NCBI GenBank assembly: GCA_973895155.1
Contig: OZ316897.1
Span: 708,515-772,514, forward strand
Source of the DNA: Marsupella aquatica
Lineage: Eukaryota; Plantae; Marchantiophyta
Length of the DNA: 64,000 bases
Direction of reading: 5' to 3'
Position numbers and translations under genes: made by a program. Position 1 is the first letter of the stretch. Every line of letters begins with the position of its first letter. The notes below the pieces were generated by a model, which was given only the letters and a program-made list of their open reading frames with translations, was not told where the DNA came from and ran no database searches. Of this stretch, positions 6,986 to 62,135 are shown one piece after another.

Positions 6986-7200
6986 CACAAGGAGGATATG
7001 CATGGTTTGGGTGCAGGGTATTTCCCAACATTCCCCTGGTAATTCATTGTTTGATAACAAAGAAGTAGGTATTCCGGCCATCTTGGGGTAATGCACCCAA
7101 ATTACCTGCTGAAGCCCACAGGTACCAGGGTATATCACACTCAGAGTATTTTGACCTCTCCCCTACGTGTCTCCAGGGAATTTAGCTACGTACAACCACC

Positions 7201-17285: not shown

Positions 17286-17779
17286 TGAAAAACATAATAG
17301 GAAAAACATTGAAAAACACAGAATAGTGCCACAATTTGCCCCTATTTTAGGACAAAAATTGGGAACAAACAAAATATGTGGAGAACGGACTATGTTTTTC
17401 CAGACTAAAAATCACCAAAATCAAGTGAAGTTACATTCCTGGACCTTACAACCCTTTATTATAGTTTGTAATGGTACCTTATTGTTTGAACTCTACCTGA
17501 ATATGGGCCGGGTATCATTTTGCGTACATCCTCTACCTTAATATCACCGTGGGGACGATTTGGTGTGAAGTTATCCTAATGTATGCAAGGCGTAATCGTT
17601 ATTTAAAAGTCAACTTGGCTACATATGAGGAAGGTAACGTTACTGTTTGGGCTGGACTAGCGCGCTTATAATGTATTACGCAACAAACTAACACGCATGT
17701 TAAATATACTGACTGTAGTTGGTCAAACGCTTATTCAATGCCGTCAAGTGCGCTCTTGGTGGACTGAAAAGAATGATGA

Positions 17780-21699: not shown

Positions 21700-24600
21700 T
21701 ATTTTTATAGAGGAGACGCAGACGATATGGAAGTCCTTTACTAGGACACAAATACAGAATGTACTGGAGATGGCACCATCCAAACATAAATTGGTGAAAT
21801 CGGTGGGTCTCGTGAATACCCTGGAGCTTGATTGGCCACCAGCAGCAATTCCAGCTGTGAAGGATTTTGCCATGGGGTACAGGCATTTAGTCTCCCCACG
21901 GGAAATTTTGCGGAATTACCGACTGAGTGGGTTGACGGTCAAATTGATTCAATCTTTACAAAATGGGCTGCGGGAAACCCATACACCATTGCACATTTAA
22001 GCTCACCCTTCATCGATTGGTGTGGGATTATCAGGGTGTTGAATTCCTTGCTTTTATGCAAGCACAAACCCAATCAGGTGAACGCAAGGCAGATGTGGGT
22101 GTATTGGGCGTACTGGTGGAATGAAATTGCGGAGTGTGATCGATTTGAAGGTGCTGCGACTCCAATTGTGAAGCCGGATTGGGCGGAATTGATTTTTGAG
22201 GAATTAGGAGCAGAATTTCTCAATTTACAGAGGCACCTATTGAGGAAAGGTAAGGTGGATAAATGGCAACCGGTGTATTGTGGAACTGCAATTACCAAAC
22301 TGCTTCTACATCATGGGTATTCCTTGGACCAGCTGATGCACGATTGGAACGGTGGTGAAGTGGAAATGTCAGAGGGCAGGGACAATGAAGAGCAGCACGT
22401 GCATGGTGAGGAACAGAAATGTTTCAACGGCGCACAGAGTGTACCCGATGATGAGCAGCATGCTACGCAGGAATGTGCCAATGGTGCGTAGAGAGCACCC
22501 GATGGTGAGTAGCATGCTGTGCAGGAATGTGACGATCATGCGTAAAGATCACCTGATGGTGAGCAGCATGCTATGCAGGAATGTGACGATGGTGCGCATA
22601 GATCACCCATTGGTGAGTAGAAATCACCCGATGGTGAGCAACATGCTGCGTATGAATGTGACAATGATGCGCATAGATCACCCGTTGGGGAGCAAAAATC
22701 TTCAAGAGGTCAGGAAGAATTGACTGATGGTGACCGGACAACCCCTCCTGCGGCAGAGTGCTTGCAAATTTTGGGAGAGCACATTCACGACCTGGAAGTT
22801 GATATTGCAAAGAAACGCGAGACCATAGGTGAACTAGTGGAGAGTTATGAATGTCTAAAACATGTTCTGGTACATCATGTGTGTGGTCATAAGCTATACA
22901 AGGCAAAACACAAGAAGATTGCATTTGAATTGATAAATGAAAATGAGTTTCTAAGGAACCGTTGTGAGCAATTGGAAGAGGAGGTAAAATTACTCAGAAA
23001 ACAAGAAGCTATCAGTGACACATTTCTTGGACAAGATGCAAACGTTGTTGCTGAGGAATGTGAGGTTCTGCTAGCACTTTGAGGCACGGCACCTGCAGAT
23101 ACGCAACCCGGATCTGAGTAGGTGCAACATTGCGTGATTTCAGAGCCCACCTTTATTTCAGAGGGAGAGGCACAAAATGCAACAACAACATCCAAAGTTG
23201 AGGTACAAGATTCAGGGGAACCATCAGAAGTTGAGGAACCAGCTGCAGAGGGAGAGGCACCAATGGTGGGACCAGCATCGCTAGTAGAGGTCCCAACTGC
23301 AGAGGGAGAGGCGGAAATGGTTGGACCAGCATCACAAGTAGAGGTCCCACCATCAGAGGAGGATGCACCATCAGATGTGCCAGGTTCACCAACAATTTTT
23401 GTTCTTTTCAACACACCAAATAAGAGACAGCGATGGAGAGCTGGGCCGAGTCACACTCCGTCACCACCCAAGAAGAGAATATGTGTTGACCAGAGTACCC
23501 CATCACCACCCAAGGAGAAAGATGTCAAATCCCAGACTCCATCGTACAAGTATTTGAATGCCTGTTTAGATGAGGAGGATGCGGGTGAGGATGAGGACGA
23601 GGACGAGGACTAACCCGAGGAGGAGCGCTCTGCATCAGGGTCCGAAGGAGATAATGATGACCGATTGCTATTGATGGATCAAGACTGGCAAGAGGAGGCA
23701 ATTCAGTGTGGAAAGGTAAGTGCTTCTAATCCAGACCTCTATTTCAAGTTTGAGTTCAAGGATTTTAGGAACTGTTCCTTGATATGACCAAAGAGCGGAA
23801 ACTTCAGACCATTCTTGTACAATTTCGCAGGAGGATATTGAAGGAAGTAATTTGACAGCAATGATGAGCCCCCCATCTGGTACAATGTCAGTAACTTTGT
23901 ATCCCCACTAGCAGATTGGTCTTGCTTGGATGGTGGATAGGGAGTCAGGGAAGAGCTCTCCAGTTGGAGGAATCTTGGCAGATGACCAGGTAATTATTAA
24001 ATCCATTTTGTTTGGATTGGAAACTCTACATGCACCCTCTGTCCGTCGCTTTCAATGTTTACAAGTGGGGTATTGGTAGTGGGGTATTGGGGTATTGGGG
24101 TATCAGTAGTGGGGTATTGGGGTATCGTTAGTGGGGTATTGGGGTATGTGCGTGGTCTTTTCGTTCCTTGTAAGCACAGAGTATGCTGAGTGTTTGTTTT
24201 GTTCATTTTTTGCAGGGAATGGGGAAGACACTCCATGTGATTGCCCTCATGATGACCAACCGGCCTTGAAATTGCGGGCCAACTCTCGTTGTTTGCCCAT
24301 CTAGTGTGATAATTCAATGGGCCAAGGAAATCAACGATATGACCACGAAGGCCGCCAATTTGAGTGTTCTTGTGTACCACGGCAGTAGCAGGAAGAAGGA
24401 CCCAAAGTACATTGCAACATTTGGGGTTGTCGTAACAACTTATGCCATTTTGTCAGCCGAGTCGAGCGTGGTTCCCAAGAAGCTGAAGAAAGGGTCACTG
24501 GTGCCTTTGACAATTAAATGGGCACCAGGTGCTTTGGAGCGGACCCGGTGGTTCAGAGTGGTCCTGGACGAGTGTCATGTCATGAAGAATAGATCAAGCC

Positions 24601-24800
24601 AGTACTTTAAAGCAGCGTGTTGTCTCCTGGCGGAGAAAAGATGGTGCCTAAGTGGCACACCAATACAGAATGAACCTAAGGATCTCTTTCCTTATTTCAG
24701 GTTCCTGCAATACTGTCCTCTACGCGAGTGGGGGGATTTCAACAAAATGTTGAAGATGATGAATGGTAGCACGAGTAAATCATATCAATTCCTATCTCGA
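21700..24800 (+). pseudogene. 5' part of a PMD-like / acidic / SNF2 (Rad5/16-like, CHR27/28-type) helicase fusion gene
   Basis: ORFs 21832, 22720 and 23122 share one frame through point stops up to the donor at 23715. Phase-0 splices lead to LYPH*QIGLAWM..GGILADDQ (23831-23989) and GMGKT (24216), followed by VLDECH, RWCLSGTPIQN and DLFPYFRFL. Cut by the Gypsy LTR at 24801. Confidence 0.82.
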
Positions 24801-27800
24801 TGTGGTGTGTCCCATGGCTCCCTAAACCCAAGAAACCCCCCTGCACAAGCCGATTCCCGCAGGTTTTTGAGCTTGGCGAGGCCGGTTTCACGGCTTAGCG
24901 GCATGGGACGCTGCTAACCTCCTCTACTACTACTATTAACATTTTACACACATATACTGGACAGATCCTTCATCGGGTCATGAGATACGTAGCCGGCCTA
25001 ATCTAGGCCTTCCCTTGTCGTCCCCATCCTTCTGGTTAGGTATATTTGGATTCCGCCGCCGGAATGATCCCCAATAGGCTTGGTTAAGCCGCTAAGACCT
25101 CTCTCAGCTCGACACATCCAACTCTCACTCCCTTGCTTACTTTCCTTCATCTATTAGTTGATGTGGGCACTCTTCACACAAGTTAATGCGACACACACAT
25201 AGCAAAATGACTCCTTCTGACTGAGTCATACCATGCACTTGCCATACAAACAGTACATCTCATACACAAGCTCTGCGAACTAAGCCGTGAGGCCAACTCT
25301 ATTCAGCTCTTAGGCATGAGGAAACATGAATATACACAAGGGTCACTGTATGACTAACCGAGAGCTTCTCTCACTACTTGATCCCAGCCCGGCTGGTACA
25401 ACTAAAAACTTGCTAAAGAAGAGGCCCTAAGCTCCCCGCTGCCCAGGTACTTATCCTGGTAGTGGATCCGCCTAATTCCTTGCAGCATAAGCCTAATCTA
25501 CCTAACTGAATCTACCTATGTACAGCGAGGCAGGAGTACAAGTGTTGCTCTTACCAGTGGAACCGCAATCCCACTAAGCTAAGTGTCAGGGCCGCCTCCT
25601 GGCCCTGATCCTAATCCTAAACTTAGAGATCTGCGCCCGCCCTGCCCACTCACGCCTCCTCCCTCCACCTCCGCCCTCCTTGAAAGGAGCGGCCCTCCAC
25701 CACCGTCATGGCAGCGGTGTCTGTTCCTCAGTGGACGCCCCCAATGCTTCCTCCTCAGCCACTGCCGTAGGTTCGTTCTCTGATAGATTACCTGCCCTGG
25801 ACTGAGTCAACTCTCCATCGGCCTGACTAGGTCCACCTTCGGCTTCAGCCTCGGCTTCGGCTTTGGCATCAGCCATGGCTTTGGCCTGAGCCTCGGCTTC
25901 ATCATCCCCTTCTTCTAGGGTAGTTGGATCCTCTGTCGCGACCCTGTCTGGGGTCGGTGCTGGGTCTACCTCCTTGGGCACCACGGCCTGTGGAGCCGTA
26001 TTACTCCTTGACCCTGAAGGTTTCCGTTTCTTCTTCTTTTCTGGTTCGGCAACTGGTCCCTTCCCCTTCCCACTTACTTCCAGCATTGGTGCAAGTGGCG
26101 CGGCTTGTCCTTCGGCCAGTACCACTCCTGGTAACTTGGTTGCCCCAATTGGATTTGGGCCTGATGAAGCCAAGCACTTAAATACTGCGGCTTGTTTCTT
26201 CAGCCGCTCCGTTTGGTTGTTGGCTCGCCGTTGTAAGTTCTCCAGCTTCCACGTACTTTCCTCCAACTCTTCCTGTACTTCGTCCAGGTCCTTGCGTGCC
26301 TCCTCCAACTCTTTCTGGGCTTCCTCCAACTCCCTGTGGGCTTCCTTCAATTCCTTCTTGAAGGTAGCCCTCTCCTCCTGGGTTGCTCTTAGCTCTTTGT
26401 CGAGCTCCGTTACGACCTCAGACTCCATTTTATTCATCTTGGCATAAGTCTGGTCGAGCTGGTCGTCCTTCTCCCGTAGGTCGGCCTTGAAGCTGGCCGT
26501 CAGGGACACAAGCTCCTGCTGCAGCGCAATAATCCCTTGATAGGATTTCCCTAACTCGGCCTCCTTCTGCTCAAGGGCTCCGCGGATATCCTTGAGCTCC
26601 CCCTCTTCAACGCCCTTTCCCTTCTTTGGGTCTCCGGCATGGCCCGGTTGTTGGCTGTTATGTGGGCTTCCTCTGCATCCCTCAGCTCTCGCTTCCACTT
26701 CTCCCGCTCCTTGATCGCATCGGCCAACTCACCTTGGGTTCGAGTCAGTTTATTCTCGATAATCCGGTTATCTGGTTGTGCGGTATCCAACTGGCCCTGC
26801 ATGATATTTAGCTCATGCCGCTTAATCCGCAGCTCATCTTGGGCTTTCCTGGCCGCCCTCAAGTCTTCGATTTCGGCTTCCCTTGCCCTAAGTCGACGGA
26901 TGACCTCGTCCTTCTTGCTTCTTTCCAAAGCCACCGCTTCTTCTAATTGGCGCTTCTCCAACATCTCCCTCTGGAAAAAGGGTCCCTGCTCCAACTCCTC
27001 CCCAAAGATGCTGAGTGCCAGCTCTCCACACATCTCCCCGTACTCCATGGCTCTATTTTTAGCATAGGTGGAGGAAGTAGCAGTCATCGGCATCATCCAC
27101 CGCGGCCTTTGTTCCCAAGCCGTCTTGCGGATCTCTTCTATTGTGGCTGGAGGGTTGCTTTGTTTTTCTGCAAGCCGCCTGATGTTCTCTGGCCATTCTC
27201 CTCCTGGTAAATCCTTCTCCCTAGCCAGGGCTGCTTCCTCTTCCTCCCTGATTCGCTCCTGAAATTCCTGCGCCGTCTATTTTATGCCGTCAAAGCTCGG
27301 GGAAGCAACATCTGGTGGGGGAGACTCGGGGCTGCTCTGCTGGCTAGGGTCCCCTCGGACTACTCTTGGGAGTGTGGGGATGAACCGGCCACAGGTCCTT
27401 AATCCTGGAACATGATGATCCGACCCATAGCCGGAGTTGTCATTGCTGTAGTCCTCCACCGCCTCCTCCTCAGCTTGGACTACCGGCTTCTCCCGCTGTT
27501 CTCCTGGTTTTGTCGTGAACACGGCTTCATCTCTTGCCGGTCTTGGTTCCTCCTCCGGCTTCCGTGTTGATCTCTTGTTCTCCTTGCCGTGGTCGGGAGC
27601 TACGGCCTGCTTCTCTTCAGCTTCGGGACTAGAGGCTCCTACATACATCCGGACTCCCGGTTCGTGTTCCGGCCTCCTTCTCTCCTTGGCTCCAGTAAAG
27701 GGGTTTTCCCTTGTAAGCCGGCTTAGGCCTACCTCTGGAGCAGTGTCCTGTATTGTTGCCGTTGCCGTTGCCGTTGCTATTGCTGTTGCTGTTCTCTTTT

Positions 27801-29510
27801 CCTTTTCCAGCAATTTCAGCAGATTCTGCATGCCTGGTTGCTGCATCGGCAAGTCCTCCGTCCTTGGCGTAAACACCTGCTCAATTGTAGGACTGTCGGG
27901 CGGGTTGGGTTTCTCCGTTGCCGGCCTCTGTTCCGGAACCTCCTCTGGTGCCCTTGCCTGTAGGGGAAGTACCGGGGCAAAGGTCTTACTTCGGGCATAC
28001 CGGCACAATAGCGGCATGTGATAGCCAAGCTGGGACACGCATCCCTTGCCGATCACCAGTTGTTCCTCCTTCAAGATCTTCTTTAGTTGAGTGAGGAGGT
28101 AACCGTTGTAGTCCCGGCTTGGGTCTGGTCTCTTTGCCAGATAGACCTGTGCTTTGCCGATCTCTGGTCTCGGCCAGTTGCAATGCATGGTTACCCGCAA
28201 GAAATCGATCATCTCTCCTATATGCGGGTTGGTGCAAGTGTTACGGAAGAAGCCATTCTTTGTTGAAGGCCCTGGGAATGACCTGAACTCCATGTCTGGC
28301 AAGGTCTTCCTGGTATCTACCTTGGTCTTATTGCCCATCGGCAAGCCAAACACTTTGGCAATCACCTGGGGAGTGAGATAGAAATCCTTCCCATACACCC
28401 TTGTGGAATTGGTCTCAGACTCCCATGATCCCACGAATTCTAGTAAGTCTGAATTCGGCACCTCCGGCTTCAGCCACGGTAACCTTACGAAGGCTTCCAA
28501 GCCGGATCCGGCCATGAAGCCCTGATATTTCCGAGTCTGCATAGCCGTAAAGCATGCATCCTCCTCCCTTGCAAAGTGTAATTGGACCTCCTCGGGGAGG
28601 ATCGCCGCCCAGCCTTTCCAGGTGTCATCTCTCGTTGGAATGGCGTTGATGGGGTCGACCTCCTCCTCCTCGGCTTCGCTCTGCCTCCTGCTCTGCTGTT
28701 CGGCTGGCCTCTTTGGTGCCGCCGACCTCATTCTTTTTGCCGGGGTGACCTCTTCGTTGTTGTTTCCCTTTCTCTTCATCTCGGCTGCCGTGGATGTCTC
28801 TCCTAGCACGGTTGCCTTTGTCCACCCCTCCGTGCTACCCTTCAATTCCCAGTGTATGTCGTTGCAGCGTTTGATGGCTTCGCGGATGCCGACGACTCTG
28901 TCTTCGCAAAACAGAAGGTTGTCGAGTTGATTGGTAGTAGGAGTCCACAAGAATTCGGCCTTGATGAGTTCTCCTCCTAAGAAGGCAGCTTTCTGCAGCT
29001 CCCACAATCGAGCGAGCTCCTGCCGTTCTCGAGCTGCTCTCTCCAATTCTTTGTCCTCGTAAGTCCCAATGTACTCAGTTGCCCATTCGAACAGGCATCC
29101 CCAAAAATGTGCCGCTTGATTGACGTTGCTCATACCCTTCTTGAGTTGATAGTCGATATCTGCTCCCACCCTGAGTGCTTGCTTAAGCAGTTGACAGTAG
29201 TTGGCCTCACGTAGTCGTCTGCCCAGTTCGTGCCTGCAAATGAGCCACAACTCCTCGCGAGCGGTCCTTACCCCTCTCCTCCTCGGCGTTTCTCTCCTGT
29301 TGGTGACCCCTAGCCGCCGGCACTTAGCGTGCCCTAACCCTAATCATGTTCTCTCCCCTGGCTTCCTTACTTCCGGCCTCGGCTCGGGTTCCATAGTCAC
29401 CCTTAATTGTTTATATTTTCCTTATTTCTGTAACTATACTAATGTGTTTCTAGGGTACACTTCTCTTTTCCACTTTAGACTAGCCCAGTGATTCCTGGCT
29501 AGGCATCACA
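24801..29510 (-). repeat. 4.7-kb 3' LTR of the Gypsy element
   Basis: Starts TGTGATGC (29510) immediately after the PPT AAGTGGGGAGCTA (29511-29523) at the end of integrase. Ends ...CACACCACA at 24801. TG..CA termini with imperfect terminal IR TGTGATG/TGTGGTG. Confidence 0.8.
25706..29394 (-). pseudogene. LTR-internal ORF: PMD-like domain plus long coiled coil (broken into 657, 181 and 330 aa pieces)
   Basis: ATG 29394 is in frame with the 657-aa ORF through one TGA (29346-29344); TATAAA at about 29410-29415. GLEAFVRLPW...EFVGSWESETNSTRVYGKDFYLTPQVIAKVFGLPMG resembles the plant mobile domain core. E/K-rich heptads downstream. Confidence 0.7.
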
Positions 29511-30764
29511 TAGCTCCCCACTTAATTGTGAAGCGTCCTCACGAACAACTTCATCTTCGTCCATATAGTATTTCTTGAGGCGGTCATAGTGAATACGAAT
29601 TGGGTACACCTCTCCGGTAATGTTGGCCAATTGTACAGAGCCATTGGGGAACTTCTTTGATACCCTGAAAGGTCCTAGCCAGCGAGTGTAAAGCTTCCCT
29701 GGAAACTTACTATACCTACTGTCATAAAGTAATACAAGATCTCCTGTGTGAATACTAACTACTTTCAACTTTTTATCATACTGCTGCTTCATGATATTTT
29801 GTCTATATTCTACTCTCTCGGCTGAAATCATTCTTGCCTCCTCTAAAGCTTCTAATCTATATTCTCGCTCCTTCAAGCTTTCCTCCTCTGAGACTCTTTC
29901 CTCAATGGTAACTTGAAATGTCGGTATCTCAAGTTGCATGGGTACCAGAGCTTCTTGTCCAAAGGTTAAGAAAAAAGGTGTATGACCGGTAGTGGATTTA
30001 TAGGCTAAATTGTAAGCAAAAATGGCAGCAAACAATTTATCATCCCAATCGAGTTTGTTCTGAGCTACTGTCTTGTTCAATATCTTTCCTATAATCCCAT
30101 TGGCTCGTTCTGTCAATCCATTTGCCTTTGGGTGGTAAGGAGTGGTAGGCCTATGTCTAACTAAATACTGCTCATTTAAACGACTAATTATATCATTCAG
30201 AAAATGGGTTCCTCTATCACTAACTAATTCTAGGGGTGCTCCATACCTGGTGAAGATCTGCTCATACATAAATCAAGCTGTAGTAATTGCATCATCCTTT
30301 GTTGTCGGCCTGGCCTCCACCCATTTAGTTGCATAATCCGTGGCCAGGATTATGTACTTTTTTCTCCGAGGATGGGTTAATGGTTTCAGCGGTCCAATGT
30401 AATCAATACCCCACTTCTCAAAGGGTGCCAGAGGTAGAATAGGGTGCAGTGGATGTCTTGTAGACGCCCTTGGTCCTCCTGCTCGCTGACAAGGATCACA
30501 CTGTTTGATGAACTGATAGACATCCTTGTGCAAGGTGGGCCACCAGTAACCGGCATTTAATATTTTTTTAGACGTGGTTACTGGAGCAAAATGTCCTTCG
30601 GCCTCTTCTCCATGCATAGCCCGTAAGACTCGTTTTACCTCTCTCTTTTCTAAACACCTTTGGATAGTGCCGCTGATTCCATACCTATGTAGCACACCCT
30701 TAATGTACTGATACTGTCTGACCTTCCGTAGAAAGACTGCGGCTTGTTCTTGGGTTAGCCCTGG
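29499..30764 (-). pseudogene. Gypsy integrase
   Basis: Zn-binding H-H-C-C (GHF...YWWPTL...CDPCQR), WGIDYIGP, VSDRGTHF, YHPKANGLTER and WLGPF; in-frame stops at about 30270 and 30765. Confidence 0.92.
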
Positions 30765-32765
30765 CTATAATCTGGATGTGCTGAGAAATTGCAAAATCTC
30801 CGGGTACCATGTATCGGCTATTTCCACAACGAATAGCTCCTCGTCGGGGAATCGATCATCGATGCAATCCGTGGCTAGTTCACCGGTGATCCTTGAAAAG
30901 AAGTCGGCATTGGCATGTAGCTTCCCCGACTTGATCTTTAGCTCGTAGTCAAACTCTTGTAATAGCAAAATCCATCTTGCTACCCTGCCTGTAAGGTCCG
31001 GCTTATTTACTAGGTACTTCAAACTTTCATGATCGGTATGAAAGATTACCTTGTACCCTAGCAAATAATGCCTAAACTTTTTACATGAATAAATGACTCC
31101 TAATGCTTCTCTTTCTGTGGTGGAGTAGTTCCATTCGGTATCGGCAAGCTGACGGCTTGCAAAGTATATGGGATGGTCCCTCCCTTTCTCATCCAACTGA
31201 CTTAGTACTGAGCCGATACAGAAGCCTAAGACATCTACAAAGACATGAAATTCCTTGTTCCAGTCTGGTGCTATCATGACTGGGGCTTCCACTAACTTTT
31301 GCTTTAATTCCACCACAGCTGTTACTCTTTCTGGTGTGGGTTCAAAGTCTGCGCCTACTTTGAGCATGTTGGTTAATGGTAAAGCTAGCTTGGCAAAATC
31401 TTTAATAAACCGTCGATAATACCCAATGCAGCCCAAGAAGGATCTCACATCCTTTATGTTCTTAGGTTGCATGATGTCAAGCCATACTGCTAGCTTACCT
31501 TTGTCAATCTCAATGCCCTTCTTTGATACCTTGTGACCTAGTAGCACACCTTCTGTTACCCCAAAGAAACATTTATCTGGGTGTAACTTGAGACCTACCT
31601 CTCTGCATCTCATGAAGGTCTTCCTTAGATATTTAGCATGTTTTGATGCCTTCCCAAATACTGCAAAGTCATCAATGAAGATTTCCATGAACTTTCTCAA
31701 GTAATCATGGAAAATGTTCACCATCAATCGTTGAAACATAGCTGGTGTGTTACAGAGTCCAAACGACATACGATTGAAGACATAGATCCCCCATTCCGTG
31801 ATGAAGGCCATCTTGATTTGGTCCTCCTGCCTAATCCTGATTTGGTTATAACCAGAGTACCCATCCATGAATGAATATAGTTCATGACTGGCTACCATGT
31901 CTAGTACCATATCAGTAAAGGGTAAAGGAAAATGGTCTTTTAACGTTGCTTCATTCAGCTTCCTGTAACCCTGACAAACCCGGATCTTGGGTTTACCATC
32001 GGGTCCAGCTTTCTTGGGAACTATCACAATTGGAGACAACCAATCTGAATGTAGGATTGGAGTGATGAATCCGGCTTCCACTAGTTTGTCGATTTCTGTT
32101 TTGACCATCAGGGAATACTTAGGATTCATCCTTCGAATTGGTTGTCGAAATGATTTGGCTCCTAACATGAGATCAATTCGGTGTTCCCCTAGTGTTGGGT
32201 CTACTCCCTTTAGATCTTGGTGACTCCATGCGAACACATCCTGAAATTCAATCAGTAAGTCACTGATCTCTTTCTCAGGCTCAGGTGCTAGGTCCTTCCC
32301 TAAGTTCAGTTCCCTTCCTTCTCCTAAGTCGAGCTTTCGATATTGCCGTGCTTGGATCATATTAATCTGCTTCTTCAAATTCGGGTCCAGCTCGGCTTCC
32401 AGCCTTTCCAGTCTCATACCTCCATAAACTGGAATCTCGGCTATACTGGCCGAGTCGGTTTCTTCCTTGGTGTCCACAGATTGTCCCCTTGCCGGTCTAT
32501 CCGGTTTTGAACTGGTAGTCGGCTTCCCTTCCTGCCTTGGCTCTGGATTGTGTCTGTGCATCTCATCCACCTCTTCCTCCTGAGGGTCAGGCCGCTGTGC
32601 TCTCCCGGCTTCTAATAGGGCCTCGATTTGTTCTGCCCACGTAATCGGCTTGTATGCCGATCCCTTGGTATTTAATTCCTTGCCGATGATAGACGGCGTT
32701 GTGGATCCTGCCGGCTCTGCCACAACGCCTGAGGAAAATCCACCCTCTCGGGTATTGCTCCCCAC
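30765..32765 (-). CDS. pol: Gypsy reverse transcriptase-RNase H
   Basis: DHFPLP, MDGYSGYNQI, MSFGLCN, FIDDF, FLGCIGYYRRFI, YSTTEREAL, TDHESL. Confidence 0.95.
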   Translation of the reverse strand: MGSNTREGGFSSGVVAEPAGSTTPSIIGKELNTKGSAYKPITWAEQIEALLEAGRAQRPDPQEEEVDEMHRHNPEPRQEGKPTTSSKPDRPARGQSVDTKEETDSASIAEIPVYGGMRLERLEAELDPNLKKQINMIQARQYRKLDLGEGRELNLGKDLAPEPEKEISDLLIEFQDVFAWSHQDLKGVDPTLGEHRIDLMLGAKSFRQPIRRMNPKYSLMVKTEIDKLVEAGFITPILHSDWLSPIVIVPKKAGPDGKPKIRVCQGYRKLNEATLKDHFPLPFTDMVLDMVASHELYSFMDGYSGYNQIRIRQEDQIKMAFITEWGIYVFNRMSFGLCNTPAMFQRLMVNIFHDYLRKFMEIFIDDFAVFGKASKHAKYLRKTFMRCREVGLKLHPDKCFFGVTEGVLLGHKVSKKGIEIDKGKLAVWLDIMQPKNIKDVRSFLGCIGYYRRFIKDFAKLALPLTNMLKVGADFEPTPERVTAVVELKQKLVEAPVMIAPDWNKEFHVFVDVLGFCIGSVLSQLDEKGRDHPIYFASRQLADTEWNYSTTEREALGVIYSCKKFRHYLLGYKVIFHTDHESLKYLVNKPDLTGRVARWILLLQEFDYELKIKSGKLHANADFFSRITGELATDCIDDRFPDEELFVVEIADTWYPEILQFLSTSRL

Positions 32766-34892
32766 TTAGCCGTTTCCAACTGGCTTACGTCTTGCGCTTC
32801 CTCCAGAATTGAAGCTAAAAAGGTGGACTCTATGGCAAAGCAGTCCTCGGCTTCATCGTCACAATTCTCCAAGTCACCTTCCATAGGTTCTTGCCATAGT
32901 CCGCTGGGGGATACCTCTGGTCCAAAGATACTTTCTTCGGTTTGGTCAGCGAGGCATTCTAGCCATCGTACCTCATCGGCTGATTCCAGTCCACTGTCGT
33001 ACCCGTCTACCTCCCTGATGCTTCTTCTGTTGTCATCCTTGGTATCCCAGGATACAGTGATAGAGGGGGTCCCAAAAGTGAACTCCTTCTTACCCCAATC
33101 CTCTATTACCTTGGCTAGGTATAGCCATGGCCTACCAATCAATAGCCGGAATGACGTAGGATTTACCGGCTTCATTACTACATAGTTAATGCTAAAGAAG
33201 ATACCTCCTATCTCTGTCTTGATGCCGGTTAACACTCCCGTGGGAATGACCTGATATCCATTGGCCATGTTCAATACTCTTCCAGTCATTTCCGGTGTTA
33301 GACCCCACCCCTTTGCTGTTGAATCAATCATAATACATACCCCTGATCCTCCATCGATGGGTACCCGTAGTAATAATTCTCCTTGAATCATTAATGGTAA
33401 TGCTGGGGCTCCTTGATCTTCTTCTATCATTAGTATGTCGGATCTGGTCGCTACCTTGGGTAATCTTGGCTTGCCGAGGATCGCCTTTCTTAACTGCTTT
33501 CGGAAGTACGGGCTATTTTTCAATAGTTGACCTACTGTTGCCGAGACTCTAGATTCTAGTACATCCTTAGCTAGGTCATAGGGAACTAACGGTTTCTCTA
33601 GTGGTATCTCCATCTTGGATTCGGCTTGTTTTTTCACGCTAGTCCCCACAACCATTGGATCTTCCAAAGCAAACAATGCTTTTGCTCGTTTCATATCCTT
33701 GGCTATGGCTTCAGTATTCTCCAGGGTTTCTAATTCTCGTAGTTGTTCCTTAACACTAGCTGTGATAGATGGGTAGAACAACTTAGGGTGGTCTCGATTG
33801 AAGTCGCTGTCCTGTGAAGGATTGGGCTCACTGGTGGGCTCATGGCTTACCTGTGTTGATGATGCCCTTCCTTCTCCTTCCGTTGATGTTGACGAAGAGT
33901 CGATCTTCTCTTCCTTAACCTTCCCTTTATTTTTAGCCAGCCCATCCCACCTTTCCTTCCTTCTGGTTGATCGAGTAGAGACCCGGTAGCAATCATGGTC
34001 CATATCCTCCTCTAAAAATGTTGATAGGGCCTCGGTCTCATCATCAGATGGTCCAAACTCTGCCTCGGCATCCACTTGCCATCCGAGCTCGATGTGGTTG
34101 ATTTGAACTCCTCCTGGGGTAGTACCTGGCGGCAAGACCTTGACCGGCAAGAGCTTATGATTTGCGGCCAATCCTGCCAACCAAGTAGGACATTGTCCTA
34201 GCATGTGACCCTCCTGTCGGCATCCCATACATAGCTGAGCTGGCTGTCCATCACCTTGTTTGCATGCATTCGGGCATTCTCTAGCAAAATGGCCAGGTTG
34301 ACCACAATTATAGCATGCCGCAAATCTTTGCACATTCGGCCTAGGAGGTACTGACGGATTCTGAATAATCCGAGGATACATCTATCCTGGATTGTTCCTT
34401 AATCCTGACCAAAGAGATGCAGGTCGGTTGGATAGGTCTCGTGCTCCAGTCTCACTGATGCCGAAAACACTATCAGCGGCATCTCCTAGAAAGTACTCTA
34501 CTTCTCCCTGACATGGTCTGACTTCAGCCACATGCCGAACATGACTAGTATTGAGCTTAGGACATGCGTCTTTATGATGTCCGGTTTTATAACATAAGGC
34601 ACACCATACAGAGCTATCCTCCTGCACTACCTTCTTCTTCGGCTTCACATCTGCTATTATAGCTTTAAGCTGCTCGGTAAGGGCTACGATGTTATCTGGT
34701 GGTTTAGCCTCCAGCTTGACTTTCGTCTTCCCTCTCCTTCTGCCCTTCCTTTTCCTAGTTTTTTCTTCTTCAGAACTAGAAGATGACTCACTCTTGCTAC
34801 TTCCACTATCCGAGCTTGAGTTATCACTTCTTGACTTCTTAGAGTGTTTCTTTTTCTTATCCTTTTTCTTATGGGGTGATCCTTCCTCCGAT
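32672..34892 (-). pseudogene. gag: Gypsy gag C-terminus (3 CCHC knuckles) and aspartic protease
   Basis: CALCYKTGHHKDAC, CYNCGQPGHFAREC and CMGCRQEGHMLGQC; protease motifs IDGGSG and LLIGRPWL. Confidence 0.9.
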
Positions 34893-35534
34893 GAGGAACA
34901 CCTCACAAAGGCTGGCCTTCAGTTCACAAGGATTGATGGGTCAATGGCCCCAAAAAAGAGAGACAAGGTGCTTCACATGTTCAGCAGGACCCCTGAGGTG
35001 AGTCAAATTTGTCCATTTTCAGACAACTAATTCATGTATACTTTCACATTATAATTGTAATGACCAAGTTTTCTATGGGCTGTGTAGGTGAGCATCATTC
35101 TGCTTTCCTTGATGGCAACATCTACAGGTCTCAACATAACTTGCGCAAATCATGTAGTTCTAGTAGACGGGTGGTGGAATCCCTAAGTGGAAGACAAGGG
35201 TGTGGACCGGGCACACCGTATTGGGCAGACAAAACCAGTCACTTTTGCACGGTTTATTGCTAAGGATTCCATTGAGGTGAAGATATTGAAGCTACAGGTA
35301 ATTCCCTGTAACTATTAGATCGAGTGTGCATTGTTTGTATATGGCTTTTATAATTAACCTGCTAGTTTTTGACTGCATTTCATGTGGATTGTGTTGATTG
35401 TGCAGAACAAGAAGCGGAGGATGATTGGTCAGATTATGTATGGTGGTGTGAAAAAACAGGATGTATCACGAGAAGACATTGCCTACTTATTCGCAAGTGA
35501 CAGTTCTCAGTCGGATTCTGATTGGTGTATATAG
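34893..35534 (+). pseudogene. SNF2 helicase C-terminal (HELICc) exons
   Basis: FTRIDGSM..KRD (exon to 34997); exon 35088-35297 with GLNITCANHVVLVDGWWNP* and [12 protein letters not shown]; last exon 35406-35534; GT-AG introns. Confidence 0.9.
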
Positions 35535-35970
35535 CTAGGGGTTCACTTGGCAACTCAAGAGCAAGCTGTATATATAGCATGAGAAGTATGTACATAGAGT
35601 TACATTGTACTACACACTGATTTTATATATAAAGGACCGCACAGTCCATTTACCTGAGCATACTTTTGTTTTGTACATTGCTGCATTTGGTTTCCCTCTC
35701 TTGGGATTTCATCATTTTCTTCTATAAACTAGTCAGGGGAAACAAACTTGTGGAATTCCACCAAGCAATTAGGCTTCTTCACACATTACCCTAAGGTACA
35801 TAGGGAATTTAGGGGCATACCGACACCTCCATGCCAAGGGGATTTGGTCCCCTACTTAATAGGGGAAAATACCTTATACAATTCAGTAAACAGGCACGGG
35901 TACACTCTGAGGTTAATTAACCTAGATAACCTCTGTAATCTATCTCCTAACGCTGCATATCCTCCTTGTG

Positions 35971-36223
35971 CATGGTTAGGTGAAAACTGGCTAAATAAAT
36001 GGAAGAAAAAGAAAACACAGGCTAGGGTGAGCAATTTGCTTTAGGTGAACAATAGAACCCTAGAGACCTGCTTAATTTTTAATGATTTTTTTCTTTTTAA
36101 TGTCACCTAATTGTAAACGATAGTAACTAAATTGGGCATGCCTTATCTAATTTTCTTAGATCAATTTCTGACTATTAGATAACGTGGCTGGTAAGGTTCA
36201 TGGTTAGGTGAAAACTGGCGAAT
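35971..36223. repeat. Satellite remnant between the two DNA transposons
   Basis: Same 300-bp unit, with an internal deletion. Confidence 0.93.
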
Positions 36224-50459: not shown

Positions 50460-50925
50460 CCGTTGCCTCGCTCCAAGAGCGTCATGCCCTTGCCTCGCTC
50501 CAAGAGCGTCATACACTTACCTTTCATCAGGAGCATCCTGCCCTTTCTTTTCTCCAAGGGCATCCGCTCTCCATTTCCTCGCCATCAGAGCGTCCCTCAA
50601 CCGCCTCGCCCCTAGAGCGACCCTCCATCGCCTAGCCCCTAGAGTGGCCCTCATTCACCTTGCCCCTAGAGTGTCTCTCCATCGCCTCGCCCCTAGAGCG
50701 ACCCTCATTCACCTCGCCCCTAGAGCGTCCCTCCATCGCCTCGCCTCTAGAGCGACCCTCCATCGCCTCGCCTCTAGAGCGACCCTCCATCTCCTCGCCC
50801 CTAGAGCGACCCTCCATCGCCTGGCCCCTAGAGCGACCCTCCATTGCCTCGCCCCTAGAGCGTCCCTCAATCGCCTTGCCCCTAGAGCGTTGCAACCTTG
50901 CCTCGCTCCAAGAGCGTCCCTGACC
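50460..50925. repeat. 27-bp tandem repeat (~17 copies) with a TCGCCCCTAGAGCGA core
   Basis: Unit CATCGCCTCGCCCCTAGAGCGACCCTC. Confidence 0.93.
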
Positions 50926-57190: not shown

Positions 57191-57785
57191 ATCAATTTCT
57201 TAGATTAATGCATTTCTAATCAATTTGTCTTGCAACGCGTGAACTCCACAGGGAATGGCATAATATTACTTCAGCCGGCTCACATTTTGGTGGGGGATGC
57301 ACTCTCGGATGTCTGGGTGTGACGCTGCCAGCACGGCGGTTAATGAGTGATCTGTTCTAATCCGTGCTTAGCACGCACGCTAAGGACATAGACTTAGTCC
57401 GTAATAATTAGCATAACAACACTAAAATAGGTAGTAACCACGACTAGGACATCATTAGTCAATAAGAAGCATTTACGCTCGGGCTGGCGGCAGAGCGCCA
57501 TTTGTACCCCGGGTTACAAGCGTGTAGGGATGCCCCTCGGGTCCGTATAACAAATCAAGGGGGCGGCTCGCTGACACACTCTGACCCGGACCTGCGGAGT
57601 GGCCGGTACACTGCAAGCATGAAAGGATCGGCCTATCAAAAGGAGGAAGGGACCGTTCGGCCGACGAGCCCTCAGGGTATAAAAGGCGGGCCATTCTTTC
57701 CTGAAGCACCACCACTTCACCCTTCGCGCCAGCTTCAATCCCAATTTCCTTGTTTGCTCCTTAGTCATCCACCGCCGTTCCCTAT

Positions 57786-58223
57786 ATGTCTATCATGATT
57801 ATGTCCAGTTCTGCCCTTCGGTTTTGGCTTCAATTTCTATCCATCGGAAATCATTTAGCGAAGTTGCTGGCCGAGATCAACCCGCGCTGGTACAAAACCA
57901 AATGGCAGTACGAACGACTCATCCGCCTAGCTGGGCACTCTCACTATAATGGAGATTTCAGCCTCCCGTTCCAGAGCAAGCTCTATTGTGCTGACAAGAT
58001 CTCCAAATACGTCTTCGATGGCCCAAAGTACGTCGGTTTCCAGGAAGCACTCCTTTGGCTTCCGGATAAGGTCTTCACACTCCCGGGCATGATCGACTTA
58101 CAACGACACCACTTCAATCATATCCCCGCCAAAGTCCAGGCTTTTGTAGACTACCAGTTTGGTACCGCAGCTATAGGCGAGACATCTATCCTAACCTCAC
58201 TCGGCTTCCCCTCAACTTGCTGA
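57786..58223 (+). CDS. LTR-internal ORF A (145 aa, unknown function)
   Basis: Open frame downstream of a TATAAAA box at about 57678. Confidence 0.45.
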   Translation: MSIMIMSSSALRFWLQFLSIGNHLAKLLAEINPRWYKTKWQYERLIRLAGHSHYNGDFSLPFQSKLYCADKISKYVFDGPKYVGFQEALLWLPDKVFTLPGMIDLQRHHFNHIPAKVQAFVDYQFGTAAIGETSILTSLGFPSTC

Positions 58224-58228
58224 ATCAT

Positions 58229-60391
58229 ATGGCGCCTCCTCCAGCTACAACCGTCGCCGACTCATTGGTGCCCGCACCAACACCACCTCGGCCTTAGCCA
58301 AGCCAATCTCCACCACCGGTCGCACCACCCCTCCGGGTGCAATCCATGATAAACGCGGTGAACATCAGTTCCAAAGGCAAGGAAGCCCACCCTCCCCTGA
58401 ACCGGCAACCTCAAGGTACAAATCAACATGCGCCGGGCAACCCGACACCACTCACACAAACCTGGGTGGATAACACGGTGACAGTGGCAGCCCCAGCACC
58501 AGTGCTTACGACAGTAGCGTTGCCGCCGCCCGATAGAGAGGATGGGGAGATGTCCCCCTCTTCAAGTCACCCCGAGAACCAGTCTCGGGGTAGGAAGAGA
58601 AAGGAACCCGCAGCCGTATCCGGGCTACCTTTGGCCACGGTTGCGGTGGCCAAGCTGACCATGCATCGCATGGGGGAGAATGTCCACAAGAACATCCTCC
58701 ACCCCAAGCATGCATGCTACCTGAAGACCCAAGGGTTTGAGCACCTTGACTCTCTCCCTTGGAATGGAAGTAGGTACTACGGGCAGGACATGACGGAGTT
58801 CATCCAGAACTTTGACAAAGCCGGCCAACAAACCCATGCGCACGGGAGAGCGATGTCCCTCAATGAGGCACGTCTTAAGATGATCTTTGGCCTAACCGAA
58901 GGAATAAATTGGGTGGAATCACGAGCTCCCGGGGGCAAAGGAGCCAAGTATCAGTCCTCTAGCTTCCCGGCCGAGGGAGCAGTGGACAACGGATTCTTGA
59001 TGAGGACATGCCTCATCCCGGAGGTAGCAGAACGGCTGGAGTTCCAGCGGTACACCCTCCACATGATGGAACCAAGGGGTGAAATATCCGCCGCCCAAGT
59101 CATCTAGGTCGAGAACTACCGGCCTAGGAAGTGGGCATCCTTCTTCGTCAAGAAGTTCCACCAGGAGATGGAGCGGAGAAGGAAGACTTTGTACCTCGGT
59201 GGGAAGGCGTACCTCGCTAGCCACATTGAAATCATCATCGAGTGGTATGCCCGTTTTGACCGCCAAAGCCTCCCTTGTATCAACGAGCCCGAGCTGACCA
59301 CATCACGGTGGGTATTCCCGGCCCAGGAGAGGCGACCTCAGCCCGAGGCCCAAAGTCTGGTGGCCGTGAGACCTACTACCCCGGCCCCGCAACCAGCCGC
59401 TGCCGCCCCTTTGAATGTACCGGACAATGGAGTTATCGCGACCCTGGACTCGATCAACCAGGCAGGTCAGCGCGATTGAAGCCGGGCTGGTAGAGGCCGG
59501 ACCCGAGCCCGAGACTACAGTTGCAGAGGACGTCCCGCTAACCTCCACGGTTGTTCAGGAGAACCGACCACCCCGTGCAAACCCAACCCCCTCTACCGTC
59601 ATACTTCAAGGGCTGGATGTCACCACTCCAACTCCCGCGCGAGCTGAGGTCTGTCCTTGCCCAAACCCGGATGGGCATAGTCTGGAATACCCGGAACTTT
59701 TTGCACCGGGCACGTTTTTGAATGGGTTGCTGGGAGACTTCTCTCAACAAATTGCACGGGATACCGGGGAGTACATGGCACGGAAGGTGGCCTACTTCTT
59801 CAACCAGGAATTGGTTGCTGCTGTGCAAGCAGGGCATGCGCAACCTGAGGCTACGCAGAGAATAGAGTGGTATCGGGTTGAGTCTACCCACCTGAAAGAT
59901 GAAGTTGCAACCCGGGAGACCAAACTCCAACTGCTGCGGCCTCAGGTAGCGGCCACTAAAGATCAGGTGGCCAAAGCTAGGGCCTGAGCAGCCTTGGCAG
60001 AGCAGGCCAGAGCTGGGAAGGACGCCGAGATTGCACGGCTCCAAACCCAGATTGATGGTTTGAAGGGACAAGCCGTCATCTGGCAAAAGGATGTGGAGGA
60101 GGCTGACGCTCGGGCCCAATGGGACACAACCAAGATAGACGCCCTGAAGGCGGAAGTGGCACGGCTTCAAGGAGAAGCCACAAAGCAGGCCCAGTTGATG
60201 GACAAGCTGACAAGCAACTGGAAGAGGCATGCCAGGAAGCCGCGGAGGAGACCGACCCGGTGAAGCGAGAGAATGAATCTCTGCTGGACCAGGTCCAGCT
60301 CCTCAAGCAGGACGCCGACCGGCTCAGAAGGCAGCGGGATGGCCGCTCCAAGTCCAACTCTGGCGGATCTAGCAAGCGCGCCAGACATTAG
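58229..60391 (+). pseudogene. LTR-internal ORF B: PMD-like plus coiled coil, homologous to the ORF at 25706-29394
   Basis: GFEHLDSLPW...DMTEFIQNF...IFGLTEG...SFP...NGF...TC..P...E...F.R.T.H...PR.EI..AQV aligns by eye with the Gypsy LTR ORF. Interrupted by TAG/TGA stops and frameshifts. Confidence 0.75.
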
Positions 60392-62135
60392 CGGCGGGAT
60401 AGGTTTAGGATAGAGTTAGGAATAGGATAGTCAGGCGATAAGGACAAGCGCCAAAACTAGTTAGCAACGCTGTCCTATCCAACCAACCTTTGTAGTTTGA
60501 ATCTTAGAATAAGACACGTCGTTTTACGGCCTGACAGTTAGCAGAGTTTAGAATCTGGGATAGCTTAGATTCGAGCACGTGGTCGGTCTGGACCCCGGCT
60601 CTTAGTATTTAGTGTACCCCCCGGTAGAGGCAGGGGGGATTTTAGTTTCAGAACCAGGTATCCGCAAGATGTGCGGGGAGTCCCGACCTTTGTGAGTAAA
60701 AGAATACCAAGGAGGGAGGGTACGACTAAGCTCGCTGGGCGAGTGCGGAGCCGGGCTCCGTTGTAGTGTATGCCGCTATGCCGTTGGGCCTATTTACTCA
60801 AGAGATGTCGAGTCAACCGTGTATATGTATATGACGGATTCTGAAGTAAAGTCTTTTCCCACCATTTCCTTCGTGTAAACCGAGATTGTATGTGCGTGAG
60901 TTTAGTTGCATGTATGAATCTCGTATATGGGTAGAGAATGCCTGGCCGAACGCATCATCCGAGCTGTGCATGGGGTGTAGGCTGCGGATAGTGGTTGCGA
61001 GCCCGGGTTGGATACTTGTATCATTGGATCTGGATCGGAGGCGGACAGTACGAAGGCTTAGAAGCCCTTAAGCCGAGGTCGATCCAGCTATCGACTTAAC
61101 GTACGTTCCGGCGGTGGAACACAAACTATACCCATGACATTTCTATAAGTAGGAATAGGCGCACTTAGCGCTAGATTACGGGAATAATGTTCAGTTTGCA
61201 CATCCCTCCTTGCCCGAACCCTCAAAACTAATGAAGATTATGCCCGTCTAAGCTGAAATCCGTGCAAGGACGAAGCTTATGGCGTGACACTGGGACACAC
61301 AGGTAAACTTTGGCACACATTGAGAGCTACTGTCTACTGGAATCTGTGGAAGGATAGGAGCTCACATTTCATTGAGCACACCAGATTATCTAATGCTCCA
61401 GCAGTCATTAAAAAATCCTGGCACAGACTGGCAATTTACATAAGTAAGGATTGGGCTAGACATAAGTTCAAAATTAAAATGGGCAAATACATGTATGGGG
61501 CTACTCTCAATGACATGACCTTCAACTATGGATCTTGGGCAATATGGGAAATCCATGAGGACACCTTACAGATCCCACCAGTTCCCCCTAGACCCCCATG
61601 AAGGTTTTTGCTTTGTAGGGGTAGAAGTTGTATTATAGGCTATACTGTCTGATAGTTTTGTCTATCACGGAGTGGGTGCCCCGCTCACACCTGTCCACTG
61701 GCCGGTCTTTTGGGGTTTGAGTCGCCCCTTATACGGTGGTTGAATTTCTGGTTTGGCTTCCTTTCTTGGGGCTTGTTTGTCTCCTGGTCCTGGCTCCCCC
61801 GGTCCTCTAGGCTTTTGAACCTCTGGTCCCCTGCCTACCCCCTCTTGTGGGCCACCCTTGTTCTATGTTGACTTTTTTAATGAAATTCAATTGGTTTTTT
61901 GGAAGGAAAAAAAAAAGCACAATGGATAGGTACGGAGTCGCAGGGTCAAAAACTATAAGAAGGGCGCGAAGTGCAATGTCCAGCACACCCATCCTCTTCA
62001 GTCCACATCGCTACTAGTTAGCTACTCGATCGCAACTCTTTCCTTCCGTTACCAGTAATTTTTGTGATCAGCAATCGATCCATAAGGTTATACTTCACTC
62101 TCTGCAGCTTGTCCTCATTCCGCCAGTCACTAGAT

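What the first reader, a model, noticed from the sequence alone, without database searches (positions are those of the whole stretch)
24801..29510. Protein-coding LTR: a ~1200-codon PMD-like/coiled-coil gene lies inside a 4.7-kb Gypsy LTR
Seen: the PPT and TGTGATGC LTR start coincide with the end of integrase (29510), so the extra ORF (29394-25706, with a TATA ~100 bp inside the LTR) is within the LTR, not in the pol-LTR spacer. Known: extra ORFs and PMD domains occur in plant Gypsy elements, normally in internal regions; LTR-encoded genes are better known from retroviruses (MMTV sag, HIV nef overlap); host PMD proteins MAIN/MAIL1 act in silencing. Inference: each full element would carry two gene copies, and every solo LTR would leave a self-contained expression unit.
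Basis: partly seen in the sequence, partly recalled or inferred. Interest (0 to 1): 0.85.

Follow-up and report, generated by a model that had tools for sequence, protein, structure and literature searches.

The report
Plant retrotransposon LTRs carry a gene
Two related plant jumping-gene families carry a long, mutation-damaged protein gene inside their 4-5 kb end repeats, a part normally treated as non-coding, and the protein likely acts in the nucleus to regulate the element or shield it from silencing.

Summary
The placement is real; the labels need correcting. 29510-24801 (4,710 bp, minus strand) runs from the polypurine tract at the end of a Ty3/Gypsy integrase to a TG...CA terminus that interrupts a SNF2 pseudogene. 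Public-run contigs end exactly at 29510, three with foreign flanks, and the ORF region is 2.3-4.4 times deeper than pol/gag. So two DNA-diverged sister families keep this gene inside the LTR. Corrections: the ORF is broken (two stops, one frame change); there is no Pfam PMD match, and the only family leads are Transposase_32/ATHILA ORF-1 (sub-threshold); the TATA sits too close to the proposed ATG. The 5' LTR of this copy is deleted, so a two-LTR element with a PBS was not seen, and a short-LTR subpopulation is not excluded. Expression and function are untested; a self-targeting chromatin regulator is the best guess. No LTR-borne plant gene turned up in ten literature searches.

The parts
24801..29510 (-). 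LTR A: 3' LTR of a 5'-truncated Ty3/Gypsy element, 4,710 bp, TGTGATGC...ACACCACA
29514..29523 (-). Polypurine tract, 3 nt before the LTR, inside the integrase frame
   Evidence: sequence
29410..29415 (-). TATA-like box 95 bp inside LTR A; only 21 nt before the ATG at 29394
   Evidence: promoter function untested
27277..29343 (-). Extra gene, piece 1 (688 open codons); preceded by a stop at 29346-29344 after the ATG at 29394; true start codon uncertain
27979..28632 (-). Conserved ~215-aa globular domain (helix, beta-hairpin, helix core), shared with solo LTR B and 16 database proteins; Transposase_32/ATHILA ORF-1-like by sub-threshold leads
26551..27276 (-). Extra gene, piece 2 (241 codons, same frame as piece 1 after a stop)
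25706..26728 (-). Extra gene, piece 3 (340 codons, other frame): coiled coil about 26422-26164, KKKKRK basic cluster, acidic tail
25655..25666 (-). Inner purine run followed within 2 nt by TG (25652): candidate relic or alternative PPT for a ~850-bp LTR
   Evidence: 1 of 9 such runs listed in the block; untested
24801..25705 (-). 905-bp non-coding LTR tail, TGTA-rich like a plant 3' UTR
   Evidence: 8 TGTA vs 4.3 expected, p 0.054
25050..25064 (-). 15-nt hairpin-forming motif shared with solo LTR B (61106-61120), the only DNA motif the two LTRs share
   Evidence: local score 32 vs maximum 30 in 100 shuffles; one site per LTR, none elsewhere in the window
29499..32765 (-). pol: RT, RNase H, integrase, with stops; no chromodomain or extra RNase H row
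32672..34890 (-). gag 3' part (zinc knuckles) and protease-like segment; element cut off at about 34890, 5' LTR and PBS missing
   Evidence: the protease motif is recognised from memory, no Pfam row
24270..24800 (+). Host SNF2 helicase pseudogene, N-terminal part, interrupted exactly at the LTR end
   Evidence: (PF00176 E 1.9e-35)
34896..35297 (+). Host SNF2 helicase pseudogene, C-terminal part, on the other side of the element
   Evidence: PF00271 E 3.6e-05 and 0.012
57318..61289 (+). Solo LTR B of a sister family, 3,972 bp, TGTGACGC...GCGTGACA, flanked by CTGGG on both sides
57678..57686 (+). TATAAAAGG box of solo LTR B, 108 nt before the first ATG (57786)
57786..60388 (+). Broken homolog of the extra gene in solo LTR B (pieces 57786-58220, 58298-59104, 59108-59476, 59415-59984, 59988-60260, 60107-60388); conserved domain 58706-59254

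Best explanation
The block is the 4.7-kb LTR of a Ty3/Gypsy retrotransposon that carries a decayed accessory gene inside the repeat, as does a solo LTR of a sister family in the same window; intact copies would likely be transcribed from a promoter at the LTR's 5' edge and likely make a nuclear, oligomeric chromatin regulator that acts on the element itself. Shown: LTR ends, PPT, solo LTR with target-site duplication, protein homology between the two LTRs, decay of both copies. Inferred (about 0.7): the gene lies in U3 as its own unit, from a TATA near the 5' edge to a poly(A) site in the TGTA-rich tail, so it is copied with each LTR at reverse transcription and left behind in solo LTRs. Inferred (about 0.65): the globular domain belongs with Transposase_32/ATHILA ORF-1 and, more loosely, PMD and VANC DUF1985. 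Inferred (about 0.4): it works like VANC, binding its own family's DNA in trans to counter silencing, with the coiled coil as oligomeriser. Likely origin: an Athila-like sense ORF between pol and the 3' LTR was taken into U3 when plus-strand priming moved to a purine tract at the end of integrase. The confidence figure is for the LTR-borne, once-functional accessory gene; the function carries the lower odds above.
For: (1) Both ends are real termini. 6 of the 32 contig pieces listed (all 6 among the 16 listed for runs X3 and X4) stop exactly at 29510, and 3 of these go on with 38, 296 and 774 letters that do not match the PPT or integrase. Three joints in run X2 land exactly on 24801 from 25639, 27341 and 28008, and the SNF2 frame is cut exactly there. 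(2) Summed contig depth over the ORF is 3.4, 2.3, 4.4 and 3.2 times the pol/gag median in the four runs; 32 of 36 ORF bins exceed their run's highest internal bin. (3) Solo LTR B: CTGGG on both sides, ends alike in 7 of 8 letters; of all TG/CA pairs within 150 bp of the two ends only 2 have matching 5-mers and only this one has matching ends. It has no pol beside it, yet holds the homologous domain (25% over 185 residues, E 2.5e-13 within the window). (4) In runs X1, X2 and X3, contigs matching the integrase end and PPT of element A continue into a loose end, and the X2 one matches the start of B in 26 consecutive letters: B-type LTRs also begin right after integrase. (5) A and B have no blastn match but keep protein similarity, which implies long selection on the protein. 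(6) 17 database proteins match the domain at E<=0.001 (one, P0004, is a repeat protein and spurious); one is from the liverwort Calypogeia fissa and P0023 has the same order of N-terminal region, domain, linker and coiled coil. (7) ESM Atlas named neighbours are Transposase_32 (0.89; 0.85-0.86) and ATHILA (0.88; 0.84) for the window domain and for P0001. (8) No transmembrane segment (best 19-residue hydropathy 1.03) and a KKKKRK cluster. (9) Literature: Transposase_32 is related to ATHILA ORF-1 (PMC11728184, passage); MAIN/PMD resembles VANC, and VANC and Athila-domain proteins are modelled as coiled-coil pentamers (PMC13547354, section 10 and passages; 10.1101/2024.09.27.615353, passages); VANC removes DNA methylation from its own TE family (PMC5735166, abstract).
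Against: No full-length two-LTR element or PBS was seen: the 5' end is deleted at about 34890 and no genome is held. The letters beyond 29510 in the three flanked contigs were not printed; none of the 16 pieces listed for X1 and X2 stops at 29510, and none of the 24 loose ends shown (of 108) is at 29510. Listed contigs across the PPT/LTR junction have only 12-28 letters on the LTR side, under the tool's 31-letter rule for bridging. Depth is, by the tool's own warning, no copy number. The LTR tail is 1.3-2.9 times deeper than the ORF and contigs skip large parts of the ORF (25212-28207 in two runs, 27057-28505 in one), so many LTR copies may lack the gene. Both window copies are broken. All Atlas scores for named families are under 0.9 with 123-146 of 256 shared features (leads only), Pfam gives no row for these families, and the link from Transposase_32/ATHILA to PMD/VANC rests on my recall, not on a paper I read. 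The N-terminal region of A has no phmmer match to that of B or the homologs. Nothing tests expression, DNA binding or anti-silencing.
Confidence: 0.85

Rival explanations
1. Mixed population: the family has both long LTRs with the gene and short (~850 bp) LTRs primed from the inner purine run at 25666-25655; in the short form the gene is an ordinary pol-LTR extra ORF. The long form would be a recent or reversible state.
For: Purine run plus TG 40 nt after the stop codon; depth falls from the tail to the ORF near 25585-25650 in all four runs (tail/ORF 1.3-2.9); one X2 contig joins 24801 to 25639.
Against: TGAGTGGG at 25652 does not match the 3' end as TGTGATG does; the joint is one contig in one run and not at the TG; solo LTR B has no comparable purine run that I noted and is long with a target-site duplication; deleted LTRs or sister families sharing the tail explain the depth equally well. 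This rival is compatible with the main finding.
Confidence: 0.2
2. Short LTRs only: the ORF lies in the spacer between pol and the 3' LTR, as in Athila, and TGTGATGC at 29510 is chance.
For: This is the usual position of plant extra ORFs (PMC7264820, main text; PMC6317226, passages); no two-LTR copy was seen.
Against: Contigs ending at 29510 with foreign flanks; ORF deeper than pol; solo LTR B holds the homolog between target-site duplications with no pol.
Confidence: 0.04
3. The 4-5 kb block is a separate mobile unit (for example a small non-autonomous element with TG/CA ends) that sits beside the integrase end, not the LTR.
For: B stands alone with a target-site duplication; no PBS was seen after either block.
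Against: The block starts 3 nt after a PPT, overlaps the integrase stop, and no other 3' LTR follows it; the junction region is high-depth in four runs (19,683-638,579 at 29508-29516 against 39-2,002 in host flanks); B-type starts follow the same integrase end in three runs; no short direct repeats at the ends of either block.
Confidence: 0.04
4. The gene is LTR-borne but lies in R/U5: the TATA near the 5' edge is the element's main promoter, R is about 4 kb, and the protein is made from the 5' end of the genomic RNA as a structural or particle-associated factor rather than a chromatin regulator.
For: The clearest TATA boxes in both LTRs lie upstream of the gene (29415, 57678); the tails have only weak candidates; the long coiled coil suits a scaffold.
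Against: It needs a minus-strand strong-stop DNA of over 4 kb and read-through of the tail's poly(A) signals, and leaves gag-pol far downstream of a long ORF (general knowledge of LTR replication); the basic cluster and the family leads point to the nucleus.
Confidence: 0.2

Closest known systems
Athila-type sense extra ORFs (ATHILA ORF-1 PF03078, Transposase_32 PF20167) of non-chromovirus plant Ty3/Gypsy elements
   Same: Sense accessory gene downstream of pol; nearest named families in both Atlas searches; globular domain plus coiled coil; no chromodomain and no extra RNase H.
   Different: Described in the internal region; here inside the LTR and in a solo LTR. No Pfam match; no transmembrane segment; host probably a liverwort (inferred).
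PMD-A (PF10536) of Ogre/Tat Gypsy elements; host MAIN/MAIL1
   Same: Gypsy-borne domain of similar size, linked to chromatin regulation (PMC5418596, PMC6317226 passages).
   Different: No PF10536 match in 21 proteins; PMD-A is reported from angiosperms, in Tat-type elements with an extra RNase H that this element lacks where it could be checked.
VANC (DUF1985) anti-silencing proteins of VANDAL DNA transposons
   Same: Functional model: TE-encoded, globular domain plus coiled coil, acts on its own family (PMC5735166 abstract; PMC13547354).
   Different: DNA transposons of dicots; no sequence or fold match obtained here; activity untested.
Long-LTR plant elements with extra ORFs: Retrosat2/RIRE3/RIRE8 (LTR >3.2 kb, ORF0), Ogre, Grande gene23, Retand
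   Same: Multi-kb LTRs and accessory genes in the same elements.
   Different: ORF0 is described as upstream of gag-pol and searched separately from the LTR (PMC3485330 passages); Grande and Retand ORFs are antisense in the pol-LTR region (PMC7264820).
MMTV sag and lentiviral nef (U3-encoded retroviral genes)
   Same: Protein gene in the LTR, duplicated at both ends (recalled; MMTV papers seen only as search listings).
   Different: Vertebrate retroviruses, about 0.6-1 kb genes with immune functions (recalled); no homology is implied.

Membership tests
Ty3/Gypsy LTR retrotransposon | RT-RNase H-integrase order, gag upstream | tested here: met
   Pfam RVT_1, RT_RNaseH, Integrase_H2C2, rve, zf-CCHC in that layout
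LTR (block A) | Starts TG just after a PPT, ends CA, inverted ends | tested here: met
LTR (block A) | Same start found at element 5' ends with foreign flanks | tested here: met
   3 contigs with 38, 296, 774 unmatched letters beyond 29510 in 2 of 4 runs; flank letters not shown
LTR (block A) | Duplicated at both ends of one element, PBS after the 5' copy | not testable with these tools
   5' end deleted; no genome; contigs are short
Solo LTR (block B) | TG...CA, inverted ends, target-site duplication, no internal region | tested here: met
   CTGGG both sides, 7 of 8 end match
Chromovirus | Chromodomain after integrase | tested here: not met
   No chromodomain row for 29502-30272; integrase ends in the LTR
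Tat clade (Ogre, Retand, TatI-III) | Additional RNase H in the polyprotein | tested here: not met
   No second RNase H row from 34918 to 29502; RNase H runs into integrase with a short spacer; the deleted 5' part could not be checked
Athila, Phygy or Selgy clade | RT/RH/INT phylogeny against REXdb | not testable with these tools
   No reference set; 5-bp TSD of B differs from the NCGN preference given for Phygy (PMC6317226 passage)
PMD (PF10536) | Pfam profile match | tested here: not met
   0 of 21 proteins at E<=1; none
PMD (PF10536) | Profile-profile or fold match | tested here: inconclusive
   No reference profile available; models pLDDT 46 and 60; PMD not among the Atlas rows shown
Transposase_32 (PF20167) / ATHILA ORF-1 (PF03078) | Pfam profile match | tested here: not met
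   0 of 21 proteins at E<=1
Transposase_32 (PF20167) / ATHILA ORF-1 (PF03078) | Remote likeness by language-model features | tested here: inconclusive
   Only named families shown, 0.84-0.89, 123-146 of 256 features; under the 0.9 mark
VANC / DUF1985 | Fold match to VANC21; sequence-specific anti-silencing | tested here: inconclusive
   Fold searches on weak models; I could not check whether entry 9LNK is in the libraries; activity not testable
Env-like extra ORFs | Transmembrane segment | tested here: not met
   Best 19-residue hydropathy 1.03 in A, 1.33 in B pieces scanned

The most novel reading that the evidence does not exclude
A liverwort Gypsy lineage has moved a VANC/PMD/Athila-type anti-silencing gene into U3, so that gene, promoter and target DNA form one self-contained module: it is doubled in every full element, survives the host's LTR-LTR deletion as a solo LTR, and lets scattered solo LTRs act in trans to unsilence the whole family. 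It would also extend this protein superfamily on retrotransposons back to the earliest land plants, bearing on whether host PMD genes came from Gypsy elements.
Probability: 0.3. Interest if true: 0.87.

Novelty: new variant of a known kind. Interest (0 to 1): 0.66.

Why it matters
Plant LTRs are treated as non-coding control regions and solo LTRs as the inert end of element removal; surveys of extra ORFs class them by position in the internal region (PMC6317226, PMC7264820). A conserved gene inside the LTR means that solo-LTR formation need not remove the element's regulator, that LTR-only annotations hide a protein family, and that such ORFs can be mistaken for host genes. If the protein counters silencing, it would be a retrotransposon counterpart of VANC with a defined promoter and a likely target in one 4-5 kb unit, directly testable in a liverwort model.

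Tried and rejected
No whole genome held. No RNA holder listed; no evidence on expression either way. Word-index protein searches found nothing at E<=0.001: longer, near, alignment A1 longer, which searched only 1,379-3,935 residues. Locus scans found no relative: metagenome contigs with the domain and with P0023, viral contigs with RT; the 5 viral matches to a 16-nt LTR-end motif share nothing else with the window and are chance. PDB sequence searches with two profiles gave one chance row each. Foldseek on both models: no match at E<=0.001; VIA-align over 48,161 chains: best Z 3.5, none at Z>=5; the models are weak, so this shows nothing about the fold. P0004 dropped as a repeat-driven false hit. 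I first read the G-rich stretch before 57318 as a PPT and the end of B as 61301; the target-site duplication put the end at 61289 and makes that stretch host flank. The flank of B looks like the 3' end of a LINE to me (recalled; Pfam gave only a chance row), so I draw nothing from it. An alignment of the N-terminal regions was not obtained; their relation rests on phmmer alone (B piece vs P0020 E 0.003 and P0011 E 0.005 in a small set; A none). The VANC21 structure paper is not held. Ten literature searches listed no paper describing a protein gene inside a plant LTR; subscription papers such as Steinbauerova 2011, Repbase entries and supplements were not seen and may bear on this.
Full report
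What is in the window. On the minus strand a decayed Ty3/Gypsy element runs from about 34890 to 24801: gag end with zinc knuckles, RT, RNase H and integrase. It sits in a SNF2 helicase pseudogene whose N-terminal part stops exactly at 24800 (PF00176, E 1.9e-35) and whose C-terminal part resumes at 34896 (PF00271). The element's 5' LTR, PBS and start of gag are gone, along with the middle of the helicase gene. The integrase frame passes through a purine tract and ends 12 nt inside a block that begins TGTGATGC at 29510 and ends ACACCACA at 24801. The block has no second copy in the window and no genome is held. The host is a plant, probably a liverwort; this is inferred from the one named homolog (Calypogeia fissa).

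The extra gene. From the ATG at 29394 to the stop at 25706 is 1,229.67 codons, broken by stops at 29346-29344 and 27279-27277 and a frame change between 26728 and 26551. The longest open piece, 688 codons, is twice the longest in 300 simulations (345). The order is N-terminal region, low-complexity linker, a globular domain of about 215 residues (28632-27979), long linker, helical region, coiled coil, basic cluster, acidic tail. There is no transmembrane segment. The TATAA at 29415 is only 21 nt before the ATG, so that ATG is doubtful as the start.

Is the block the LTR? Seven public DNA runs were listed and four, from two studies and two organism labels, were laid; all are short contigs. At the 5' edge, 6 of 32 listed pieces (of 1,198 laid) stop exactly at 29510, all in runs X3 and X4, and three of them continue with 38, 296 and 774 letters unlike the PPT or integrase. 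That is what 5' LTRs and solo LTRs at other sites give; a diverged pol end would be expected to keep matching through the PPT. Against: the letters were not shown, X1 and X2 list no such piece, and pieces across the junction have only 12-28 letters on the LTR side. At the 3' edge, three joints in X2 land on 24801 and depth falls several hundredfold into the host gene. Depth over the ORF is 2.3-4.4 times the pol/gag median, with 32 of 36 ORF bins above their run's internal maximum; the tool warns that this is no copy number, so I take it as a hint. The tail is 1.3-2.9 times deeper again, and some contigs skip most of the ORF, so gene-less LTR forms probably exist; a purine run and TG at 25666-25652 leave room for a short-LTR subpopulation.

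A second, self-contained case. tblastx of the block against the window found one real match, at 58706-59101 on the plus strand; tblastn extends it to 185 residues at 25% identity, E 2.5e-13. It lies in a 3,972-bp unit, 57318-61289, with TGTGACGC and GCGTGACA ends and CTGGG on both sides; only 2 TG/CA pairs within 150 bp of the two ends have matching 5-mers and only this one has matching ends. This is a solo LTR. It has a TATAAAAGG box 108 nt before an ATG, a broken gene with the same domain and a coiled-coil-like end, and a 927-bp tail enriched in TGTA (11 vs 4.2 expected, p 0.003; 8 vs 4.3, p 0.054 in A). In three of four runs, contigs that match A's integrase end and PPT continue into a B-like start, 26 consecutive letters identical for the X2 row. 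So two families with close integrases and LTRs that no longer match by blastn both begin the LTR at the integrase stop and keep the same protein in it. Their one shared DNA feature is a 15-nt hairpin-forming motif 264 and 184 bp from the 3' ends (marginal score).

What the protein is. A full HMMER scan gave 17 proteins at E<=0.001, best 41% identity; 16 align with the domain, one is spurious. Of ten looked up, one carries an organism name. P0023 repeats the layout of domain, linker and coiled coil; its genomic setting could not be fetched. Pfam has no PMD, ATHILA, Transposase_32 or DUF1985 row for 21 proteins. The ESM Atlas puts unnamed clusters first (0.91, 0.89) and then Transposase_32 and ATHILA (0.84-0.89) for two different family members, below its mark for more than a lead. 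AlphaFold2 reached mean pLDDT 46 and 60, with a 70-80 core of helix, beta-hairpin, helix; this pattern resembles what I recall of the ATHILA/Transposase_32/PMD cores, which is memory, not a test. Fold searches were uninformative. 'PMD-like' is therefore acceptable only as a loose superfamily guess; membership of PF10536 failed its test.

How it most likely works. Shown: the gene is inside the repeat and travels with solo LTRs. Inferred: it lies in U3 with a promoter at the 5' edge and a poly(A) site in the tail, while the genomic RNA starts in the tail; the alternative is a very long R. Inferred: the product is nuclear and oligomeric and regulates its own family, most simply by countering silencing as VANC does. 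Inferred origin: capture of an Athila-like 3' ORF into U3 by a shift of the plus-strand primer to the end of integrase. Both copies here are dead.

Compared with what is known. [quoted passage not shown] Ten searches listed no report of a gene inside a plant LTR; the library lacks subscription papers, and Repbase and supplements were not seen. Earlier AI notes of this scan report unrelated or uncompared LTR-borne genes in fungal and moss elements; these are unchecked, give no support, and suggest the layout recurs rather than being unique. No note matched this sequence or genome.

Verdict. New variant of a known kind: a familiar type of accessory gene in an unreported place. Interest 0.66.

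Noticed in passing
window 57318-61289 (+): Solo LTR of a sister family with CTGGG target-site duplication and a homolog of the extra gene; used as main evidence.
   Followed up: yes
window 40388-47041: Ty1/Copia element (RVT_2, rve, gag-pre-integrase) between 169-bp repeats that differ at one position, so a young insertion; it lies between two long unrelated ORFs (38065-40359, 47173-48768).
   Followed up: no
window 32672-32765 (-): The gag/protease frame and the RT frame overlap in different frames within a long acidic spacer; programmed frameshift or decay not resolved.
   Followed up: no
window 4700-7000, 35968-36222, 55430-57190: A ~300-bp tandem repeat family in three places, one directly left of the solo LTR's flank.
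   Followed up: no
window 52090-54846 (+): 918-codon ORF with DUF7869 (E 2e-44), possibly a transposase-like gene; neighbouring 405-codon ORF 51030-52247 has no Pfam row.
   Followed up: no
window 36679-40359 (-): NIF phosphatase-like ORF (E 1.9e-16) and a 764-codon ORF with a weak N6/N4 DNA methylase row (E 4.5e-05, under cutoff), near the SNF2 pseudogene; may be cargo of a larger mobile element.
   Followed up: no
window 62022-63203 (+): 393-codon ORF without a Pfam row.
   Followed up: no
window 25064-25050 (-) and 61106-61120 (+): Shared 15-nt hairpin-forming motif near the 3' end of both LTRs; candidate cis element for packaging, priming or 3' end formation.
   Followed up: partly
window 24801 joined to 25639, 27341, 28008 (run X2): LTR ends joined to inner positions of the same LTR type: probably insertions of the family into its own LTRs.
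   Followed up: no
window 16189-17330, 48813-49172, 50438-50973: Tandem arrays of 40, 60 and 27 bp.
   Followed up: no
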